From: Candidatus Bipolaricaulota bacterium
GTDB lineage: Bacteria; Patescibacteriota; Patescibacteriia; UBA11705; DATKZF01
DNA: 64,000 bases
Assembly: GCA_035528115.1 (NCBI GenBank)
Contig: DATKZF010000003.1
Coordinates: 487,089-551,088, forward strand
Direction of reading: 5' to 3'
Of this stretch, positions 17,145 through 63,192 are shown one piece after another. Every line of letters begins with the position of its first letter. Positions within the stretch are counted from its first letter, which is position 1. The notes below the pieces were generated by a model. That model searched no databases and was not told the origin of the DNA. It was given only the letters and a program-made list of their open reading frames with translations. Made by a program: the position numbers and the translations under genes.

Positions 17145-17762
17145 ATGCATTACGAACTAATACTTCAAAAAAAAGGATATCACTTCATCGCCGGCATTGA
17201 TGAAGCCGGACGAGGGGCCTGGGCGGGCCCCTTGTTTGTCGGCGCCGTGATTTTGCCGCTGGGCGAATTGAAAAAATTCAAAGGCGTCGGGGATTCGAAA
17301 AAATTGACCGCGGAAAAAAGAGAAATTTGCGCCAAAACAATAAAAAAATATTGCGTGGCCTGGGCGATCGGCAGGGTCGAGTCCGGTGAAATCGATTCAT
17401 TGGGACTTCAAAACGCTCATTTGCTGGCGGTCGAAAGAGCGGTATTGGGGCTGGGCATCATGCCCGATTATGTGTTGGTTGACCGCATCGCCAAAGTGAA
17501 ATTTCCCATGCCTTTTGAAAACGTGATTAAAGGCGATGATAAATTCATTTCCGTGGGCGCGGCTTCGATTATGGCCAAGGTGGAAAGAGACGCTGAAATG
17601 AGCGAGCTGGAAAATAAATATCCCAATTATCATTTTAAAGAGCATAAAGGTTATGGCACAGGAGAGCACATGGACGAAATAGCCAAATTCGGCTTGTGCG
17701 ACCTTCATCGACGCTTGTTTTCCCCGATTAAGGAAATAGATAAAAAAATGCAGTTGTTTTAA
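17145..17762 (+). CDS. rnhB: Ribonuclease HII
   Basis: IAGIDEAGRGAWAGPLFVGAV matches the RNase HII active-site region (DEAGRG). Confidence 0.9.
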   Translation: MHYELILQKKGYHFIAGIDEAGRGAWAGPLFVGAVILPLGELKKFKGVGDSKKLTAEKREICAKTIKKYCVAWAIGRVESGEIDSLGLQNAHLLAVERAVLGLGIMPDYVLVDRIAKVKFPMPFENVIKGDDKFISVGAASIMAKVERDAEMSELENKYPNYHFKEHKGYGTGEHMDEIAKFGLCDLHRRLFSPIKEIDKKMQLF

Positions 17763-17782
17763 TGATTTGCTGTTGCTTGGAC

Positions 17783-17811
17783 TTGACAAGAAACAAAACC
17801 GGTGTTAATAT
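17783..17811 (+). promoter_or_regulatory. Sigma-70 promoter TTGACA, 17-nt spacer, TAATAT, followed by a GGAGGTGG RBS at 17843-17850
   Basis: Read directly; it drives the GC-rich ORF that starts at 17855. Confidence 0.5.
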
Positions 17812-17854
17812 ATCGACGTCATTTCACATCTCACAATTTGCGTGGAGGTGGCAG

Positions 17855-18274
17855 ATGTCCGATGACAGAAAATTCGAGGAGGCTTTCCCGGGAAGCTATG
17901 GACACTCGCAGCTCGATGAGGAGATTCCGAGCCAAGGTTCGGATCCCGAGTCCATGCTGCTTCAGGGCGGCCGAGAGCTTCGCCTTGACATGATCGGTGA
18001 TGAACTGGTCAGAAGGCTGACGCCGCGGGAGGAAAAGATCCTGCGCATGCGGTTCGGCATCGGCGAGGACGATGAGTCTCCGCTGAAGGACAAGGACATG
18101 TCGGAGGAAACTCGACGGCGCGTGGAATTGATCGAGCAGAAGTCGTTGAGGAATCCCCGCCATCCCTGCCAGAAGAATCAAGCCGAAGCTCGTCGCCGAG
18201 TGCTTGAGCTTTTGGCGAAATCCCGGCGCGATCTCCGCGCAGTTGTCGACATCGAAGAAGAAGCCGTGGGCTAG
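17855..18274 (+). CDS. Small protein made of a sigma-70 (RpoD-type) region 3.2/4 fragment, GC-rich and foreign-looking
   Basis: LTPREEKILRMRFGIG...TRRRVELIEQKSLRNPRHP is near-identical in pattern to RpoD LTAREAKVLRMRFGI...TRERIRQIEAKALRKLRHP, but the HTH turn TLEEVGKQFDV is replaced by EDDESPLKDKDMSEE. GC is about 58% with G/C-ending codons. Confidence 0.5.
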   Translation: MSDDRKFEEAFPGSYGHSQLDEEIPSQGSDPESMLLQGGRELRLDMIGDELVRRLTPREEKILRMRFGIGEDDESPLKDKDMSEETRRRVELIEQKSLRNPRHPCQKNQAEARRRVLELLAKSRRDLRAVVDIEEEAVG

Positions 18275-37321: not shown

Positions 37322-38674
37322 CTAGCGGTTGAGGAAGTTACGAAAAGCGTCGGTCACGACCATCTGCTCGAGGCGCTCGCCACAAGTGATGATGCCAAGC
37401 TGCGCGTCCGGGAAGTGTGAGGTCGAGGAATTTGTGACTCCAAGCAGGAAGTCCTGCGCCTCGTCCGGCAGTTGACTGAAACTTCTGGCCGCGCCCGTCC
37501 CGCTTTTCCAGCCGTTGAAATTGACAACGTCGGGCTCGCACAGGTCCCAGTCAGCAATGCGAGCGGGCGGGTACGCGAAGCGCTCGCCGCGAAGTTGCCA
37601 GGTATCCACGACCGGGATTTTAGGTTGACTGTCGAGCACGTCCAGTTTCGTAAAGCACAGGAAGTTCGGCGCGCAGAGCCGAATTCCTTGTCGAAGGAGC
37701 GGGAGATTGAGCGGGCCGCAACGTCGAGGGCGTCCGGTGGTGACGCCGAATTCCGCGCCGCGTTGTCGCAGAGACTCTCCGGTGTCGGATTTGTCTTCGC
37801 CGGGAAAAGGCCCGCCGCCGACTCTGGTGGCGTAGAGCTTGGATACTCCGATCGTGAACGCGATGTCCATTATCGTCAATCCCGCTTGCGCGATCAGGCC
37901 GGCTGCGGTCGTTGATGACGAAGTGACGTACGGGTACGTCCCGAACAGCCGATCAAGCAGAGCTCCTTGGCCCGGTTCGATCAGGCCGATGTCGCCGTTG
38001 CGTTTGATTTCATCGATTACTCGTAAGGTGTCCGTGACGCGACCGCCCAGCTTTCGGACGGAGTCAATGACATTGTCCACTTCGCATTTTTCTTCGGGCC
38101 GGCCGCAGCCGCGCAAGATGGCGTTGGCGAGGTCGTACGCCAGCTTGAGCCTCTGTTCAGCTTTGTCGCCGCTCTCAAGCAGTTCAAAGAATGTCGGTCC
38201 GACCCGGAATGCCTGCATGGCGTAGGTCGGGCCGATGCCGCTGCCCGTGGTGCCGATACGGTCATTGCCCATGAGAATTTCGATGGCCGCTTCGACCGAA
38301 CGATAGATCGGCAAAACGACTTGAGCGCGACCGTCGATCAAGGTTGGCGAGACGTTGACTCCTTGGGCGCGCAGGTCCGTCATTTCTTTTTTCAGCGCGA
38401 CTGGGTCGATGACCATGCCAGCTGCCAAAATGGCCGTGATGTCGGGATCGAACACGGCCAGCGGCAGGTAATGGCTTTTTTGGAGTCGACCGAAGCTGTC
38501 TCTGTACGAATGGCCGGCATTGCCGCCGCCATTGGGCCGAATGGCCCATTTGATGCGCGGGTTGTGGCTCTGCTTCATCAGCTGAGCCAGACGCAGAGAG
38601 ACAGACCCTTTGCCGTTGTCTCCGAACGTCAAATCGGAGAGTAAAATGAACCTGCCGCGAAGATTAGGCATCAT
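37322..38674 (-). CDS. purA: Adenylosuccinate synthetase-family protein, divergent and GC-rich
   Basis: P-loop GDNGKGS (PurA GDEGKGK), GGGNAGHS (catalytic His), TTGSGIGPTY, YATRVGGGPFP, GVTTGRPRRCG, and the GTP-specificity motif TKLD. About 62% GC, in contrast to the AT-rich promoter TTGACT-17-TAAACT upstream. Confidence 0.8.
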   Translation of the reverse strand: MMPNLRGRFILLSDLTFGDNGKGSVSLRLAQLMKQSHNPRIKWAIRPNGGGNAGHSYRDSFGRLQKSHYLPLAVFDPDITAILAAGMVIDPVALKKEMTDLRAQGVNVSPTLIDGRAQVVLPIYRSVEAAIEILMGNDRIGTTGSGIGPTYAMQAFRVGPTFFELLESGDKAEQRLKLAYDLANAILRGCGRPEEKCEVDNVIDSVRKLGGRVTDTLRVIDEIKRNGDIGLIEPGQGALLDRLFGTYPYVTSSSTTAAGLIAQAGLTIMDIAFTIGVSKLYATRVGGGPFPGEDKSDTGESLRQRGAEFGVTTGRPRRCGPLNLPLLRQGIRLCAPNFLCFTKLDVLDSQPKIPVVDTWQLRGERFAYPPARIADWDLCEPDVVNFNGWKSGTGAARSFSQLPDEAQDFLLGVTNSSTSHFPDAQLGIITCGERLEQMVVTDAFRNFLNR

Positions 38675-38751
38675 GGCCTCTCTTTCTTTGTATGTCATTG
38701 CCCATGGAAAGTTTAGAAGCTTTGAGGAGAAAAGTCAATCATTGCGCAATT

Positions 38752-58944: not shown

Positions 58945-59013
58945 GAATCCAGTCTATCATTTCCGCTGAATTTTTTCAATTGAAAAACGACGATCGTGAG
59001 ACAATCGTCGCTA

Positions 59014-60003
59014 TTAGGCGGCAAAATCGAAAATTTGCTTTTCGATGTCCGCTCGAGGGATCAGGCCTTCCCCGGACTGATTGACCAGCCTTAGAATGGT
59101 CTGGTTGTCGAGTCCGTTACTTGCGAGAATCTCTTTCGCTTCCTTCCTGCTTAGGATACCTTGTCCGCGCAGACTGGACATGGCCTTGAGCAGAGTCTCT
59201 TTGTCTTCTCCCACGGCGGCCATGAAGGCGGATAGAATCCATTTGCTGGTTTGCTTGATGGAAAGCAGGGCGTCGCAAATTCTGTCCACGTTCCAGTTGT
59301 TTGCCAGCAATGAAACGACGATTCTGCCCGCAGTCCACTTGGCCGGTCCGAACAGCTGGCGATAGAGGTGCGAAGCGATATTGTAGTCGCTCCACTTGGC
59401 GCTCTCCAGGGCGCGGATTATTCTCGAATCTTTCCAGCCGGCCGCTTGCAGCGCTCGGAACGTTTGATCCGGACCGATTTTCGTGTCCCCGAACGCCTTG
59501 ACGATCCGCATGTCGCCCCAGCCGATGATCGAAAGGATGGAAACAATGATGTCAAAGGTGTCGAATTTCCAAATGTTGGCAACTAGCTCGTCGTCCGTCC
59601 AGACTCGCGACAAGGCTTTGCAGATCCGACGCAAGGCTTTTTTTCGCGTCTTGTCCGGCAATTTCGTGCCCGGCTTGTCCTCCGTGAAGCCGATCTGGTA
59701 GCACAGGAGAAAACTATCGTGCAGAAAATACAAGCCATTTGCGACCATAAGCAGTTCCACCAGGTATTTTTTCTCAATGGCGGAGTGCCGCAAGGCGCGC
59801 ACGATCTTGGCGTCGAACCAGCCGGCCGCGAAAAGGTCATTGACGATCTCGATGTTTCGCCTTTTCTCTTCAAGCGACCCCGGGGTTTTGGAAAAACCCA
59901 GGCCGGCGAGCAGGGTTTGATCGATTCTGGCGATATTTGCCGGGTGTTTTTTCGCCAGTCTGTCCGCTTCGCGCAGAGTTTTTTTCAGTATCGCCAAATC
60001 CAT
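59014..60003 (-). CDS. Repeat protein with 6 or more copies of a roughly 30-aa motif a-G-W-x-D-x-R-I-(V/I)-R-A-L; function unknown
   Basis: AAGWFDAKIVRALRHS, IIGWGDMRIVKAFGDT, AAGWKDSRIIRALESA, KWSDYNIASHLYRQL, KWTAGRIVVSLLAN, NWNVDRICDALLSI; AAAAAGGAGGGGGAC RBS before ATG. Confidence 0.45.
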   Translation of the reverse strand: MDLAILKKTLREADRLAKKHPANIARIDQTLLAGLGFSKTPGSLEEKRRNIEIVNDLFAAGWFDAKIVRALRHSAIEKKYLVELLMVANGLYFLHDSFLLCYQIGFTEDKPGTKLPDKTRKKALRRICKALSRVWTDDELVANIWKFDTFDIIVSILSIIGWGDMRIVKAFGDTKIGPDQTFRALQAAGWKDSRIIRALESAKWSDYNIASHLYRQLFGPAKWTAGRIVVSLLANNWNVDRICDALLSIKQTSKWILSAFMAAVGEDKETLLKAMSSLRGQGILSRKEAKEILASNGLDNQTILRLVNQSGEGLIPRADIEKQIFDFAA

Positions 60004-60078
60004 GTCCCCCTCCTTTTTGCCGTACAGATAAGTTAGCATGAATCCATAATTAAAAAAAGCCGGCTTGGTGAAGCTGGC

Positions 60079-60552
60079 TTAAAATCCGGGAGGCAGATTG
60101 GGATTGATGGCTTGAGACAATGACCTTCTGAAGGCGAGGAAGCTTTCCGGCGTTCGAAAGAATTTCGCCATGTCGGTTATCCTGCCATGGCCATTGCCGT
60201 AAACCGCCAAAGTGGCGACGGAGTTCTCTCCTGCTTGAATGCTGTGCCATACATCCGGCGCCAGACTCAACTGACAAATGCTGTCGTTATCTAATTTCTT
60301 TGGGGGCATGGCGACACATTGGTGATTTCCATCTTTGTCCCAGAGATGCACAACGACGCTGTTGTTTCCGCCGGTGACCGTCAAAAAAGCCATTTCTCCT
60401 TCATTGTAGGCTCCGTCGGCGTATTGAGTGCCGGGAGAGATCATTTGAATCGACGGGAGCCCATCCGGCCCGTCGTCTATTTTAGGGTAGGAGTGGCTGG
60501 GGGAGCAGACGAGGAGGCATCCTCCTAACAGTGTTTGTTTCGTTGCGCCCAT
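60079..60552 (-). CDS. Small cupin-like protein, possibly a WxcM/FdtA-like sugar 3,4-ketoisomerase fold (weak)
   Basis: AAAGGAGG RBS. PDVWHSIQAGENSVATLAVYGNGH resembles the P.VWH..........VLAS.Y segment of FdtA/WxcM-type cupins. Only weak similarity is seen by eye. Confidence 0.35.
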   Translation of the reverse strand: MGATKQTLLGGCLLVCSPSHSYPKIDDGPDGLPSIQMISPGTQYADGAYNEGEMAFLTVTGGNNSVVVHLWDKDGNHQCVAMPPKKLDNDSICQLSLAPDVWHSIQAGENSVATLAVYGNGHGRITDMAKFFRTPESFLAFRRSLSQAINPNLPPGF

Positions 60553-60645
60553 CGTTTCCTCCTTTGTTCTGAAAGGAAGTTTACTTGGCCGGTCGGGTTT
60601 TGTCAATTTAAAAGCGGCGGATTGATAAGACAATCGCCGCTTGAG

Positions 60646-60831
60646 CTATTTGGATGTTTTGATTTTTTTTCTGGAAGAAATCCCCGTGCCGAGAATTACC
60701 GAGCTTAGGAACATTCCTCCTCTCCCGATGGTCAGCGACAATCCGGGAATACCAAAGGAAACGCTGATGCCGTTACGTGAAAAACTCAGCCACAAGTTAC
60801 GGCCAAGTCTGACGTGTGTTCTGAAATTCAT
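60646..60831 (-). CDS. DUF4236-family small protein, copy A (61 aa counting from the internal Met)
   Basis: MNFRTHVRLGRNLWLSFSRNGISVSFGIPGLSLTIGRGG...ILGTGISSRKK matches the DUF4236 pattern (M.FR..I.LG.G.RLN.SK.G.S.S.G.PG...........G.PGTG.S). Coordinates could be off by 1 nt. Confidence 0.5.
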   Translation of the reverse strand: MNFRTHVRLGRNLWLSFSRNGISVSFGIPGLSLTIGRGGMFLSSVILGTGISSRKKIKTSK

Positions 60832-60880
60832 GTTGCCTCCGTTTAAAAGCGGCGGATTGATAAGACAATCACCGCTTGAG

Positions 60881-61066
60881 CTATTTGAATTTTTTGATTT
60901 TTTTTCTCGAAGAAACACCCGTGCCCGGAATGCCCGTATTGAGAAAAATTCCTTTTCTGCCAATGTTAATCGATATGCCTGGGATGCCGATAGAGAAGCT
61001 GACGCCGTTTTTTGAAATATTCAAGCGCGCATTGCGGCCGAGCCTGATTCTTTTTTGGAAGCGCAT
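60881..61066 (-). CDS. DUF4236-family small protein, copy B (61 aa)
   Basis: MRFQKRIRLGRNARLNISKNGVSFSIGIPGISINIGRKGIFLNTGIPGTGVSSRKKIKKFK; tandem paralogue of copy A. Confidence 0.6.
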   Translation of the reverse strand: MRFQKRIRLGRNARLNISKNGVSFSIGIPGISINIGRKGIFLNTGIPGTGVSSRKKIKKFK

Positions 61067-61129
61067 GACTTTATCTCCTTTTCAAGAAAAGAGGCGGCTT
61101 GGATTGTCCAAACCGCCTCATGTCATTGA

Positions 61130-61663
61130 TTACTCCTTCTTGCGGCCGGCGTCCTTTTCCGGAGCCTCTTCGAGAACCTTGATCTTGGTGATGGCCTCGA
61201 AGGCCGGCTCGAGCTGCTGGAGCAGGGTTGCCATCATTTCACGGCCCGTGCCCTGCATGCAGTACTCGGCCACCTTGGCCACGGTCTCGCAGTTGGGGAT
61301 GAACCCGTACTGCGTGGACAGGTAGTGCACCGCGCTGGCCACGAACAGCGGCTCGAGCATGTGGCCGAGCGCGGTGTCGAAGAACTTGGGGTAGGTGTCG
61401 CCCAAGGTGCGGCGCAAGATGCCAATCATCAAGTCGCACGCTTCTTCGGATCCGGCGATCTTGGCGCCGTGCTTGAGGTTGACTGTGACAGCATGGAGAG
61501 TCTGATTGGGCTTGTCGGTCATGCTGGACATGGTGGTTTCTCCTTGGGTGGTGGTTTGTTTATCGGTCTGCGGTATTTCGCCGAGCGCCTGGGCTGCGTC
61601 CTCTCCTGCAGCCTCGCCGAGCGCTTCGGCGATTCTTTTTTTGACATCCTTGACACTGCTCAT
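61130..61663 (-). CDS. Hypothetical protein (about 177 aa) with very GC-rich, G/C-ending codons; foreign-looking
   Basis: GGAAGGAG RBS. The ATG overlaps the upstream gene's stop (TAATG). Codons are dominated by ctg/gtg/gcc/aag/ttc/cac, unlike host genes. No recognisable domain. Confidence 0.4.
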   Translation of the reverse strand: MSSVKDVKKRIAEALGEAAGEDAAQALGEIPQTDKQTTTQGETTMSSMTDKPNQTLHAVTVNLKHGAKIAGSEEACDLMIGILRRTLGDTYPKFFDTALGHMLEPLFVASAVHYLSTQYGFIPNCETVAKVAEYCMQGTGREMMATLLQQLEPAFEAITKIKVLEEAPEKDAGRKKE

Positions 61664-62217
61664 TAATTTTCTCCTTCCGTTACCGCATCCTCTTTTTTTT
61701 CTTTCTTCTCCTCCTTCTTGGTTCCCTTCTCCTTGCCCCCATTCTTCCTGAGGGCTTTCTCTTTGTCTTGCCGCGAAAGAATGCTCTCCATGAGAGCATC
61801 GATGACGATTTGGACTGATAGCCATGAGTCGCATTGCCCCAGCTCACGAATGACATCATCGTCATCAATGACTGAAGTCTTGACGTGGTCTTTTAGCGAA
61901 TCTCCCAGAATAAGGTAGCATAAGTGGCAATGCGGGCAGATTTTGATGAAGTCGCCGGCAAACTTCATGATGATATAGTAGTGACTCCTGCACTCATAGC
62001 ATGGCTGAGCGGTGAAGAAATGGACAGCCTTGCTTGGGTTGCCGGCCGCGTTTTCGATTCGTCTTTTCAAAGCGCTAATGATGGCTTCTCCATTGATTTC
62101 CCACGGATTCTTGTGTGAAAAATAGTTAATAAGCTCTTTTCTTACGTTAATGTCCATGTCTTGAGCTCCTTTGTCTCCGCGGGTTTTTAAGTTATCAATG
62201 AACATGTAAGGAAGCAT
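61663..62217 (-). CDS. Hypothetical zinc-ribbon protein (CxxC...CxxC) with a K/E-rich C-terminal tail
   Basis: CYECRSHYYIIMKFAGDFIKICPHCH; the tail is KEKGTKKEEKKEKKED. A TATAAT lies immediately upstream of the ATG, so the transcript may be leaderless. Confidence 0.4.
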   Translation of the reverse strand: MLPYMFIDNLKTRGDKGAQDMDINVRKELINYFSHKNPWEINGEAIISALKRRIENAAGNPSKAVHFFTAQPCYECRSHYYIIMKFAGDFIKICPHCHLCYLILGDSLKDHVKTSVIDDDDVIRELGQCDSWLSVQIVIDALMESILSRQDKEKALRKNGGKEKGTKKEEKKEKKEDAVTEGEN

Positions 62218-62333
62218 TATAACAATTTAAAAAATGATGTCATTAATATGTTAAATTTAATTATTGATATTTGTCTTTATTTTGTCTAAAATTAAATAAA
62301 ATGCTCGAAATATAAAAATATTGTTCGTAAAAA

Positions 62334-62361
62334 TTGACAAAAATTATTAATTTGATATAAT
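62334..62361 (+). promoter_or_regulatory. Consensus sigma-70 promoter TTGACA, 16-nt spacer, TATAAT for the TrmB-like gene at 62368
   Basis: Perfect -35 and -10 hexamers read directly from the sequence. Confidence 0.6.
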
Positions 62362-62367
62362 AAATGC

Positions 62368-63192
62368 ATGGAAATTAAAGCGGAACAAATCAAACTGATC
62401 AGCGAATTGAAAAAGGCGGGATTAAAGCAAAAAGAAGCGGAGATTTATGCCGCTCTTTTGGAATTGGGCGGCGCTTATCCGTCCAAAATCGCGGAATACA
62501 CGAAATTGAACAGAAGCACGGCTTATAAAATTTTGGAGGAATTGGCCATTAAAGGCCTGGTTTCTGAATTGCGAAAAGGAAAAAAACTTTACTATCAGAT
62601 TGAAAAACCCGAAAAATTGGTTAGGTTCGCCGACAGTCAGATCAGGCTCGCGGAAAATCGTTTGGAAAATGCCAAAAAGATATTGCCGGAAATAGAAGGA
62701 TTGTTTACCTTGACTCCTCATAAACCAAAGGTAATGTTTTATGAAGGGCTTGACGGCGTGCTCAAGGTTTACGCCGATCATGTTGAAGTGAAAGAAACTT
62801 ATGAGATGTTGGCTTATTCAAACGCCGCCGAGTATTTGAAATTCATTCCCAAAAAAGACCAGGAAGCATATACGAAGAAAAAGGAGAAATTGAAAATTAA
62901 AACAAGAGGCATTGTGCCGGATACGGTGATTGATAAAAGTTACAATAAAGTCGCTTACGCTAAAATCGAAAAAAGCATTTGGCCAAAGATCCGCTATATT
63001 CCGGCAAAGATGTTTCCTTATCATGGCGAAGTTACAATTTACGGCAAAGATAAGGTCTCTTTGATAAATTTCAGAAAAGGAGCGTATGTCGGCGTTATTA
63101 TAGAAGATCAAGACATTCACGACATGATGGCCATGATTTTTGAGCTGGCTTGGGCCGGTGCCAAGGAATTCGAGAAAGAGAAAAAAGTTTGA
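62368..63192 (+). CDS. TrmB-family transcriptional regulator (third paralogue)
   Basis: KEAEIYAALLELGGAYPSKIAEYTKLNRSTAYKILEELAIKGLVSE winged HTH. Confidence 0.6.
   Translation: MEIKAEQIKLISELKKAGLKQKEAEIYAALLELGGAYPSKIAEYTKLNRSTAYKILEELAIKGLVSELRKGKKLYYQIEKPEKLVRFADSQIRLAENRLENAKKILPEIEGLFTLTPHKPKVMFYEGLDGVLKVYADHVEVKETYEMLAYSNAAEYLKFIPKKDQEAYTKKKEKLKIKTRGIVPDTVIDKSYNKVAYAKIEKSIWPKIRYIPAKMFPYHGEVTIYGKDKVSLINFRKGAYVGVIIEDQDIHDMMAMIFELAWAGAKEFEKEKKV

What the first reader, a model, noticed from the sequence alone, without database searches (positions are those of the whole stretch)
59014..62217. Five-to-six-gene minus-strand cluster of uncharacterised small proteins
On one strand, with short or no gaps, lie: a CxxC..CxxC zinc-ribbon protein; an ATG overlapping its stop (TAATG); a foreign GC-rich 177-aa protein; two tandem DUF4236 paralogues, each with its own hairpin; a small cupin-like protein; and a 330-aa protein built from GW-x-D-x-R-I-x-R-A-L repeats. 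The cluster is divergently flanked by a TrmB-like regulator with a perfect consensus promoter. None of these has an assigned function and the combination is not a known operon. The mix of a nucleic-acid-binding-type zinc ribbon, a repeat scaffold and small DUF proteins, with heterogeneous GC, makes it a candidate accessory module (phage-defence, anti-defence or symbiosis-related).
Basis: inference. Interest (0 to 1): 0.6.

Follow-up and report, generated by a model that had tools for sequence, protein, structure and literature searches.

The report
Lineage-specific small genes, not one module
The six small genes are real, but they are two or three separately inherited, lineage-specific units of an ultra-small uncultured bacterium, sitting between housekeeping genes, and nothing links them to phage defence.

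Summary
There are six minus-strand genes: a Zn-ribbon protein A, a TAATG-coupled GC-rich protein B, two tandem DUF4236 mini-genes with near-identical hairpins, a 157-aa protein E and a 329-aa GW-repeat protein F. A TrmB-like regulator with a perfect 12/12 promoter faces them.

Comparison with about ten related metagenomic loci splits the cluster:
- **TrmB | A–B–DUF4236.** This order and its bidirectional promoter are conserved in 3–4 lineages. TrmB–A–B is removed as one clean 3-kb block in another lineage.
- **E.** It is a degenerate FdtA/WxcM-like cupin without the catalytic His pair. It sits next to rluD–cca in at least six lineages.
- **F.** It is an α-solenoid of roughly 14-residue W-turn repeats, weakly UBA-like. 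It occurs with or without E and with or without A–B.

There are no PADLOC or phage matches except the generic DUF4236 domain. No integrase, tRNA or restriction-modification genes lie nearby, and the flanks are housekeeping.

B is not recently foreign. Its GC3 excess is kept in all five lineages although neighbouring synonymous sites are saturated. I cannot explain this.

Verdict: ordinary lineage-specific genes in a variable interval. One plausible small regulator-linked operon is present, and functions remain unknown.

The parts
62368..63192 (+). TrmB-like winged-helix regulator (274 aa), transcribed divergently from the cluster
   Evidence: Pfam PF01978 scores 54.2 bits against a cut-off of 25.6. 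Orthologues 71-81% identical sit in the same position in L002, L004 and L018.
62334..62361 (+). Consensus sigma-70-type promoter of the regulator (TTGACA-16-TGnTATAAT). The ATG lies 7 nt downstream, so the mRNA is probably leaderless.
   Evidence: It scores 12/12. The blocks TGTTCGTAAAAATTGACA and TTTGnTATAATAAAnnCATGGAAA are invariant in four lineages.
62216..62243 (-). Promoter of the A-B transcript (ATGACA-16-TGnTATAAT, 11/12)
   Evidence: The -35 and -10 hexamers and a 5'UTR block (GTTAA..TTC.TTGAYAA) are conserved in four lineages.
61663..62157 (-). Gene A: a 164-aa zinc-ribbon protein (CYEC...CPHC) with a Lys/Glu-rich tail. JGI calls it from 62205 (180 aa).
   Evidence: Sequence. An AAAGGAG RBS precedes the ATG at 62157. 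Fast-evolving homologues with one to many CxxC pairs lie upstream of B in L002, L004, L018 and L019. It has no Pfam family.
61130..61663 (-). Gene B: 177 aa, with a variable disordered N-terminus and a conserved helical core of about 110 aa. It is coupled to A through TAATG and is GC3-rich.
   Evidence: The family has only 5 members. It matches no Pfam, PDB or PHROG entry. The AF2 model has pLDDT 48 and is unusable.
61091..61119 (-). Strong hairpin plus U-run after B. The RBS of gene C follows directly, leaving no room for a promoter.
   Evidence: -27.1 kcal/mol, z -7.4. A homologous hairpin lies after B in L004, and a comparable hairpin plus U-run lies after B in L019.
60881..61066 (-). Gene C: a stand-alone DUF4236 mini-protein (61 aa, pI 12)
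   Evidence: PF14020, 66.4 bits. It matches 11 PHROG families. A DUF4236 gene follows B in L004 (79% identical) and in L019.
60849..60875 (-). Hairpin after C (GCGGTGATTGTCTTATCAATCCGCCGC, then UUUUAAA)
60646..60831 (-). Gene D: the second DUF4236 mini-protein (61 aa), a tandem duplicate of C
   Evidence: PF14020, 40.3 bits. It belongs to the 235-bp tandem duplication. It is 60% identical to C in protein and 69% in coding DNA.
60614..60640 (-). Hairpin after D, differing by 1 nt from the one after C
60578..60606 (-). Possible own promoter of E (TTGACA-17-TAAACT, 10/12)
   Evidence: This is a consensus match only.
60079..60552 (-). Gene E: a 157-aa degenerate FdtA/WxcM-like cupin that lacks the HxH catalytic pair
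   Evidence: It has five real homologues of 145-158 aa. The profile of the family matches the neighbouring PF05523 protein of L016 in hhalign with 97.5% probability and E 5e-12. The HxH columns are Q and Y in the window protein.
60057..60080 (-). Hairpin plus U7 after E
   Evidence: -10.1 kcal/mol, z -2.35.
59014..60003 (-). Gene F: a 329-aa all-alpha repeat protein. Helices of about 10 residues are joined by 4-residue turns that carry W or GW.
   Evidence: The AF2 model has pLDDT 82.6 and pTM 0.66. Orthologues 29-37% identical occur in L002, L010 and L017. Pfam UBA matches below threshold at 13.3 bits.
58986..59012 (-). Terminator hairpin after F, upstream of rluD
   Evidence: -15 kcal/mol, z -3.6.

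Best explanation
The stretch is not one module. It is a juxtaposition of lineage-specific chromosomal genes of a small-genome uncultured bacterium, most likely Patescibacteria/CPR. The genes lie in a variable interval between an Asn/Asp-tRNA ligase gene and rluD-cca.

**Unit 1: TrmB-like regulator and the A-B-DUF4236 transcript.** The regulator and the divergent transcript start from a conserved back-to-back promoter region.
- A (zinc ribbon) and B are translationally coupled and probably act as a pair.
- The DUF4236 mini-genes follow a strong hairpin with no room for a promoter of their own. I infer that they are expressed by read-through, at a lower level than A-B.
- I infer that the regulator controls both promoters through the conserved TGTTCGT/TTGACAA-containing blocks.

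**Unit 2: E.** E is an FdtA/WxcM-like cupin that has lost the catalytic histidines. It therefore probably binds a ligand or a partner and does not isomerise a sugar nucleotide. It is a syntenic neighbour of rluD-cca throughout the clade.

**Unit 3: F.** F is a soluble alpha-solenoid scaffold. It is usually but not always next to E.

**Shown:** gene structures, homologies, synteny, the block deletion, conserved promoters, and the absence of defence or phage signals.

**Inferred:** co-regulation by the TrmB-like protein, A-B complex formation, read-through expression of DUF4236, and the ligand-binding and scaffold roles of E and F.
For: **Synteny**
- Window: aaRS-TrmB|A-B-DUF4236x2-E-F-RluD-CCA.
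- L004: aaRS-TrmB|A-B-DUF4236.
- L018: TrmB|A-B.
- L019: A-B(ATGA overlap)-DUF4236.
- L002/L007/L013: aaRS-TrmB|A-B-(294 aa, reverse)-F-VWA-AAA5.
- L010-12 are about 86% identical in DNA to L002, but a clean 3.05-kb block carrying TrmB-A-B is absent.
- L017: F-E-HTH-x-RluD-CCA. L016: F-E-cupin. L015: E-RluD. L021/22: cupin-E-RluD. L023: cupin-E-RluD-CCA.

**Regulatory region.** The bidirectional promoter region is conserved in four lineages, although 4-fold sites of the TrmB gene are only 22-42% identical.

**Transcript structure.** A and B overlap as TAATG. A hairpin lies between B and DUF4236, directly followed by the RBS, in the window, L004 and L019.

**E as a cupin.**. FdtA His49 and His51 are essential (PMC2943079).

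**F fold.**

**No defence or mobile signal.**, and the housekeeping neighbours.
Against: - All relatives are close, and several contigs are only 1-4 kb long. Co-occurrence therefore cannot be separated from inherited gene order, and some 'absences' are only contig ends.
- No transcript data exist, so the terminator-like hairpins could make five separate units or one attenuated operon.
- The operator motif rests on four sequences.
- The GC3 anomaly of B is unexplained by this account.
- PADLOC dates from 2023, so newer defence systems would be missed.
Confidence: 0.6

Rival explanations
1. One reading: the six genes form one accessory module for phage defence, anti-defence or symbiosis, regulated by the TrmB-like protein.
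For: - The genes share a strand and have short gaps.
- The aaRS-to-rluD interval varies between relatives and elsewhere holds a MoxR-type AAA_5/VWA pair and a reverse transcriptase.
- TrmB-A-B is dispensable.
- DUF4236 occurs in phage proteins.
Against: - The genes dissociate among relatives.
- Five terminator-like hairpins lie inside the cluster.
- PADLOC gives no hit for any of the six proteins.
- A, B, E and F have no viral relatives.
- There is no integrase, tRNA or restriction-modification gene, and the flanks are housekeeping.
- E and F stay syntenic with rluD-cca in many lineages, which fits vertical inheritance.
Confidence: 0.07
2. The cluster, or at least B, E and F, is a recently acquired foreign island, as its heterogeneous and elevated GC suggests.
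For: - B has GC3 0.80, F 0.69 and E 0.60, against 0.54 +/- 0.055 for the other genes.
- Another GC-rich gene in the window, purA, may be horizontally acquired.
Against: - B orthologues exceed their neighbours in GC3 in all five lineages, at the same locus.
- Synonymous sites of the adjacent TrmB gene are near saturation over the same divergence, so a neutral foreign signature should have decayed.
- F in L002 has ordinary local GC3, 0.23.
- No mobility genes or repeats flank the cluster.
- No GC-rich donor homologues were found among 5.8 billion proteins.
Confidence: 0.1
3. The GC3-rich sequence of B is constrained at the nucleic-acid level, for example by a structured RNA, an overlapping antisense gene or a protected mRNA. 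On this view B's coding function is secondary.
For: - The GC3 excess is maintained in five lineages, with codons 101-160 at 0.95.
- It does not follow the direction of expression-linked bias: L19 has GC3 0.42.
- The B mRNA folds slightly better than shuffles, z -2.2.
- The antisense frame is open over all 178 codons in the window.
Against: - The antisense frame has 5 stops in L019 and 3 in L002.
- The protein core is strongly conserved, with invariant motifs NLKHGAKIAGSE, CMQGTGRE and QLEPAFE.
- The folding z-score is weak.
- Rfam gives no match.
Confidence: 0.08

Closest known systems
TrmB-family regulators with a divergently transcribed target operon (for example the archaeal TrmB sugar regulons). 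This comparison rests on my own knowledge.
   Same: - The N-terminal TrmB winged helix is present (PF01978).
- The regulator sits back-to-back with a small operon and shares a conserved intergenic region.
- Regulator and target genes are lost together.
   Different: - The target genes are a zinc-ribbon protein, an unknown helical protein and DUF4236, not a sugar transporter or a glycolytic gene.
- No TrmB-type palindromic operator was identified.
- Binding was not tested.
FdtA/WxcM-like cupins (Pfam PF05523; dTDP-4-keto-6-deoxyglucose 3,4-ketoisomerases; PDB 2PA7, 4ZU4)
   Same: - The E family aligns with a bona fide PF05523 protein encoded next to its L016 orthologue (hhalign 97.5%).
- That neighbour matches WxcM-like and FdtA structures.
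- E shares the LWD..GN...(I/V)WH...FF pattern and is of similar size.
   Different: - E itself gives no Pfam or PDB hit.
- The His-x-His catalytic pair, essential in FdtA (PMC2943079), is replaced by Q and Y in the window protein.
- No sugar-nucleotide pathway genes lie nearby.
UBA/TS-N-like helical motifs and alpha-solenoid repeat proteins (TPR, HEAT, designed helical repeats)
   Same: - F is predicted to be all-alpha, with short helices and regular turns.
- Foldseek returns only designed helical repeats and TPR proteins.
- The L-x-A-A-G-W-x-D-x-R-I-x-x-A-L unit resembles the UBA helix1-MGF-helix2 motif.
- A distant relative, P0009, passes the Pfam UBA threshold at 30.1 bits.
   Different: - F scores below the UBA threshold: 13.3 bits, and 18.6 bits for the L017 orthologue, against a cut-off of 22.4.
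- The unit is about 14 residues with an invariant Trp in the turn, and matches no Pfam repeat.
- TM-scores to all PDB and BFVD hits are 0.35 or lower.
DUF4236 (Pfam PF14020)
   Same: C and D are full-length matches above threshold.
   Different: Here the domain is the whole 61-aa protein and is tandemly duplicated. In the viral contig L020 it is the N-terminal domain of a 457-aa protein with hydrophobic, probably membrane-spanning, stretches, and several matching PHROG profiles are much longer than the domain. The only paper that mentions the family does not address its function.
Anti-phage defence islands and PADLOC systems
   Same: The only shared features are that the genes are small and uncharacterised and lie in an interval that varies between relatives.
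   Different: - PADLOC gives no hit for the six proteins.
- No neighbouring defence, restriction-modification, Abi or integrase genes are present.
- No mobility signature is present.

Membership tests
DUF4236 (PF14020) | Match to the Pfam model above its gathering score (27 bits) over the full 55-position profile | tested here: met
   C scores 66.4 bits and D scores 40.3 bits, both over profile positions 1-55.
TrmB family regulator (PF01978) | N-terminal TrmB winged-helix domain above the gathering score (25.6 bits) | tested here: met
   54.2 bits over residues 14-78. NCBIfam TrmB equivalogs score far below their cut-offs, so this is a TrmB-like protein and not an orthologue of a characterised TrmB.
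TrmB family regulator (PF01978) | Binds an operator in the promoter of the adjacent genes | not testable with these tools
   Only conserved intergenic blocks were seen.
FdtA/WxcM-like cupin (PF05523) | Sequence match of the protein itself to the family model | tested here: not met
   E gives no Pfam hit at E <= 0.1 other than noise, and the E-family profile gives no PDB hit.
FdtA/WxcM-like cupin (PF05523) | Homology to a recognised member (fold-level relationship) | tested here: met
   The E-family profile against the L016 PF05523 protein gives hhalign probability 97.5%, E 5.4e-12, over 83 columns. That protein hits PDB 4ZU4, 4MZU and 2PAM.
FdtA/WxcM-like cupin (PF05523) | Catalytic His-x-His pair (FdtA His49/His51; PMC2943079) | tested here: not met
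   In alignment A7 the GAHAH of the bona fide member aligns with T-Q-Y-A-D in the window protein. Only some E homologues keep one His.
UBA/TS-N domain (PF00627) | Match above the gathering score (22.4 bits) | tested here: not met
   F scores 13.3 bits and the L017 orthologue 18.6 bits. Only the distant repeat protein P0009 passes, at 30.1 bits.
Zinc ribbon | Two CxxC knuckles about 15-25 residues apart, conserved in homologues | tested here: met
   The window protein has C-Y-E-C...C-P-H-C. Three of the four Cys are invariant, along with the Pro of CPxC, in the three-sequence alignment A4, and L004 lacks one Cys of the first pair. The L018 and L019 homologues carry one to many CxxC pairs. Metal binding was not tested.
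Single operon | Same strand, short gaps, one promoter, no internal terminators | tested here: inconclusive
   The genes share a strand and the gaps run from -1 to 93 nt. However, five hairpin plus U-run sites lie inside the cluster. There is no room for promoters before C and D, and there is a possible promoter before E.
Known anti-phage defence system / defence island | Match of at least one component to a defence-system model | tested here: not met
   PADLOC-DB v2 gives 0 hits for A-F. Only the HTH of the regulator resembles Csa3/CasR HTH domains.
Known anti-phage defence system / defence island | Neighbourhood enriched in defence or mobility genes | tested here: not met
   Within 10 kb on each side the genes are UvrA, a response regulator, L19, Gmk, CCA, RluD, aaRS x2, PEP-utilising enzymes, ScpA/B and a D-Ala-D-Ala carboxypeptidase-like protein. 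The window has no tRNA.

The most novel reading that the evidence does not exclude
TrmB|A-B-DUF4236 could be a previously undescribed, regulator-linked four-gene cassette restricted to a small clade of ultra-small bacteria. It would be gained or lost as a unit. Its central protein B would be under an unusual, selection-maintained constraint on synonymous sites (GC3 up to 0.95 in a genome of about 45% GC), pointing to exceptional expression, mRNA protection or a dual RNA/protein role. E and F would be an equally undescribed pair of a catalytically dead cupin and a W-turn alpha-solenoid.
Probability: 0.2. Interest if true: 0.45.

Novelty: new member of a known kind. Interest (0 to 1): 0.22.

Why it matters
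- Little changes for biology at large. The result removes a candidate 'defence island' and shows it to be a set of lineage-specific genes.
- The work yields three small annotations:
  - E is a degenerate FdtA-like cupin.
  - F is a new W-turn helical-repeat family.
  - The two DUF4236 mini-genes were replaced by a spurious antisense ORF in the JGI gene calls.
- The one puzzling point is that B keeps a strong GC3 excess across lineages whose neighbouring genes are saturated at synonymous sites. If this reflects selection, it would be an unusual single-gene case of codon or mRNA-level constraint in a reduced genome.

Tried and rejected
**Family libraries.** Pfam, NCBIfam, PHROGs and PADLOC scans of all six proteins gave only DUF4236. 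Scanning every member of the A and B families at E <= 5 gave no consistent weak family.

**PDB sequence searches.** Profiles of F, B and E gave nothing.

**Structure**
- The F model is good, but Foldseek against PDB and BFVD returned only generic helical repeats with TM <= 0.35.
- The B model has pLDDT 48 and was not searched.

**Viral and phage searches.** IMG/VR scans found no relatives of A, B, E or F, and GenBank phage searches found none of B or F. One scan failed because the E alignment had no conserved stretch to search with.

**Metagenome scan with B.** It found only the L002 organism again, plus a chance match inside a 223-aa ORF with no other similarity to B (L014).

**Long multi-repeat hits to E.** The Filamin/Big-domain proteins were rejected as biased, non-homologous matches after Pfam.

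**Overlapping antisense gene in B.** Rejected, because the frame has stops in L019 and L002.

**Expression-linked codon bias for B.** Rejected, because L19 has GC3 0.42.

**Rfam.** No credible RNA family in 54-64 kb.

**Tandem repeats.** Tandem Repeats Finder found no array in the repeat-rich stretch of L010.

**Literature.** DUF4236 appears in one unrelated paper.

Full report
**1. What is in the sequence**

The minus strand of 59014-62217 carries six genes, each preceded by an AAGGAG-type ribosome-binding site.

| Gene | Coordinates | Length | Main feature |
|---|---|---|---|
| A | 61663-62157 | 164 aa | Zinc ribbon CYEC...CPHC with a Lys/Glu-rich tail |
| B | 61130-61663 | 177 aa | ATG overlaps A's stop as TAATG |
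| C | 60881-61066 | 61 aa | DUF4236 |
| D | 60646-60831 | 61 aa | DUF4236 |
| E | 60079-60552 | 157 aa | Degenerate cupin (section 4) |
| F | 59014-60003 | 329 aa | W-turn helical repeats |

- The first ATG of the A reading frame, at 62217, lies inside the -10 box. JGI calls A from 62205.
- Only C and D match a curated family: DUF4236 at 66.4 and 40.3 bits, against a cut-off of 27. NCBIfam, PHROGs and PADLOC add nothing for A, B, E or F.
- C and D belong to a 235-bp tandem duplication. Their coding parts are 69% identical, while the 39 nt after the stop, including a 27-nt hairpin, match at 38 of 39 positions. That hairpin occurs nowhere else in the window.
- Hairpin plus U-run structures follow B, C, D, E and F (two of them also pass the stricter scan).
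- The divergent gene at 62368-63192 is a TrmB-like regulator (PF01978, 54.2 bits). Its promoter is a perfect TTGACA-16-TGnTATAAT, and the ATG lies 7 nt downstream.
- A has an 11/12 promoter at 62243-62216.

**2. Where it comes from**

- The window is part of a 604-kb contig from JGI metagenome 3300031565. Identical proteins lie on contigs of up to 763 kb.
- GenBank holds the same proteins as 'hypothetical protein' in a MAG labelled Candidatus Bipolaricaulota.
- The nearest species representatives found with the TrmB-like protein are labelled Patescibacteria, Candidatus Uhrbacteria and, implausibly, Gammaproteobacteria.
- I treat the organism as a small-genome uncultured bacterium, probably Patescibacteria. 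This is an inference.
- Within 10 kb on either side, all genes with a Pfam hit are housekeeping: UvrA, a response regulator, L19, Gmk, CCA-adding enzyme, RluD, two Asp/Asn-tRNA ligases, PEP-utilising enzymes, ScpA/B and a carboxypeptidase-like protein. The window has no tRNA.

**3. Comparison with relatives splits the cluster**

Exact-protein look-ups and scans gave about ten related loci.

| Locus | Gene order |
|---|---|
| Window | aaRS-TrmB \| A-B-DUF4236x2-E-F-RluD-CCA |
| L004 (TrmB 77% identical) | aaRS-TrmB \| A-B-hairpin-DUF4236, then contig end |
| L018 | TrmB \| A-B |
| L019 | A-B (ATGA overlap)-hairpin-DUF4236 |
| L002/L007/L013 (TrmB 71%) | aaRS-TrmB \| A(347 aa)-B-(294 aa, reverse)-F-VWA-AAA5 |
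| L010-12 | aaRS-(294 aa, reverse)-F-VWA-AAA5-...-RT-RluD-298aa-CCA |
| L017 | F-E-HTH_3-DUF7980-RluD-CCA |
| L016 | F-E-FdtA-like cupin |
| L015 | E-RluD |
| L021/22 | (294 aa, reverse) \| cupin-E-RluD |
| L023 | cupin-E-RluD-CCA |

- L010-12 are about 86% identical to L002 in DNA. The 3,053 bp that hold TrmB, A and B are replaced there by about 106 bp.
- More distant TrmB loci (42-60% identity) have none of these genes.

Three conclusions follow.
- TrmB, A and B (usually followed by DUF4236) travel together and can be lost together.
- E is a stable neighbour of rluD.
- F occurs with or without E, and with or without A-B.

**4. What the proteins are**

*E.*
- A full HMMER search of 1.84 billion representatives gave five real homologues of 145-158 aa. 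It also gave biased hits to Ig-repeat proteins, which I discarded.
- In L016, L021 and L023, E lies next to a second small protein. Only the L016 neighbour was scanned against Pfam, and it matches FdtA/WxcM-like (PF05523, E 7e-11) and the WxcM-like/FdtA crystal structures. The L021 neighbour resembles it only weakly in tblastn (E 9e-6), and the L023 fragment was judged from its sequence.
- The E-family profile aligns to the L016 neighbour with 97.5% probability.
- FdtA needs His49 and His51 (PMC2943079). The window protein has Gln and Tyr at those columns.
- E is therefore a cupin of FdtA ancestry that is probably not an isomerase.

*F.*
- F has three full-length relatives in 5.8 billion proteins, and the L017 locus adds a fourth that is cut at its N-terminus. 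One distant protein, P0009, is built from the same A-G-W-D-D-x-R-I-x-K-A-L unit and passes the Pfam UBA threshold.
- The AlphaFold model (pLDDT 82.6) is all-alpha. It shows about 20 helices of roughly 10 residues joined by 4-residue turns that carry the Trp.
- Foldseek finds only designed repeats and TPR proteins, with TM <= 0.35.
- I read F as a soluble scaffold. This is an inference.

*A.* It belongs to a fast-evolving family with one to many CxxC pairs and low-complexity tails.

*B.* It has a variable N-terminus and a well-conserved core of about 110 residues with no detectable relatives beyond five sequences. Its model failed, with pLDDT 48.

*DUF4236.* It is a very basic 55-residue domain. 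In the viral contig L020 it forms the N-terminus of a 457-aa protein, and several matching PHROG profiles are much longer than the domain.

**5. Transcription**

- The 210-bp region between A and the regulator is conserved in four lineages. The conserved blocks are TGTTCGTAAAAATTGACA and TTTGnTATAATAAAnnCATGGAAA on the regulator side, and the -35 and -10 hexamers plus a GTTAA..TTC.TTGAYAA block in the 5'UTR on the A side.
- Four-fold sites of the regulator gene are only 22-42% identical between the same genomes. The intergenic conservation therefore indicates constraint.
- I infer autoregulation and co-regulation by the TrmB-like protein.
- The hairpin after B is followed at once by the RBS of DUF4236 in the window, L004 and L019. 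No promoter can fit there, so DUF4236 is most simply expressed by read-through at a reduced level. This is an inference.
- E has a 10/12 promoter-like site of its own.

**6. The GC anomaly of B**

- B has GC3 0.80, rising to 0.95 in codons 101-160. The other genes average 0.54 +/- 0.055.
- Its orthologues exceed their immediate neighbours in every lineage:

| Lineage | B GC3 | Neighbours' GC3 |
|---|---|---|
| L004 | 0.83 | 0.38-0.55 |
| L018 | 0.78 | 0.31-0.39 |
| L019 | 0.57 | 0.24-0.37 |
| L002 | 0.43 | 0.18-0.27 |

- Neighbouring synonymous sites are saturated, so a foreign signature should have decayed. The excess appears to be maintained.
- It does not follow the direction of expression-linked bias, since L19 has GC3 0.42.
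- It is not explained by a conserved antisense ORF.
- The mRNA folding signal is weak, z -2.2.
- I leave this unexplained.

**7. Defence, anti-defence or symbiosis?**

- PADLOC gives no hit for any of the six proteins.
- IMG/VR holds no relatives of A, B, E or F, and GenBank phages hold none of B or F.
- No mobility genes are present.
- What remains of that reading is that the aaRS-to-rluD interval is plastic. In relatives it holds a MoxR-type AAA_5/VWA pair, a reverse transcriptase and repeats. TrmB-A-B is also dispensable.

**8. Verdict**

The interpretation as one accessory module is not supported.
- The stretch is a juxtaposition of a small regulator-linked operon (TrmB|A-B-DUF4236), a degenerate cupin and a helical-repeat protein. 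All are lineage-specific and of unknown function.
- Interest is low. The only real oddity is the maintained GC3 excess of B.

Noticed in passing
window 60641-61015 (+) versus 60646-61066 (-): The JGI gene calls for this contig place a 121-aa ORF on the opposite strand where the two 61-aa DUF4236 genes lie. Both mini-genes are therefore missing from that annotation, and the antisense ORF is probably spurious.
   Followed up: partly
window 37322-38698 (-): The adenylosuccinate synthetase gene (PF00709) is the only other strongly GC-rich gene in the window (GC 0.59, GC3 0.70). It may be a horizontally acquired purine-salvage gene.
   Followed up: no
window 17762-18274 (+): A 170-aa ORF with raised GC (0.55, GC3 0.66) has no Pfam match.
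   Followed up: no
window 62334-62368 and 62205-62243: Both divergent promoters sit so close to the first ATGs that the regulator mRNA should be leaderless. The ATG at 62217, the first in the A reading frame, is part of the -10 hexamer.
   Followed up: partly
window 60842-60920 and 60607-60685: The last roughly 75 nt of each DUF4236 unit (C-terminal SSRKKIK codons plus hairpin) are about 95% identical, while the rest of the duplicated genes has diverged to about 65%. This could reflect gene conversion or a constraint on the 3' end and hairpin.
   Followed up: partly
L010 10550-14570, L011 and L012 (same interval in relatives); L002 13980-16440: In relatives, the aaRS-to-rluD interval holds four extra elements. 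They are a MoxR-type AAA_5 ATPase, a 564-aa VWA protein, about 2 kb of dispersed 80-500-nt repeats with no called genes, and a 524-aa protein with RVT_1, RNase_H and RVT_3 domains. Tandem Repeats Finder found no regular array.
   Followed up: partly
L016 1100-1498, L021 1103-1588, L023 1-216: E orthologues are often paired with a second small cupin. The L016 copy still carries the GAHAH catalytic motif. The window genome has only the degenerate copy at this locus.
   Followed up: partly
L018 1505-1790: Between A and B in L018, an uncalled reading frame encodes further CxxC zinc-ribbon repeats. It is either a split or frameshifted A gene or an extra small gene.
   Followed up: no
records behind the window, L007, L005 and L006: Taxonomic labels of closely related MAGs disagree: Candidatus Bipolaricaulota, 'uncultured Gammaproteobacteria', Patescibacteria and Candidatus Uhrbacteria. 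At least some are probably mislabelled.
   Followed up: no
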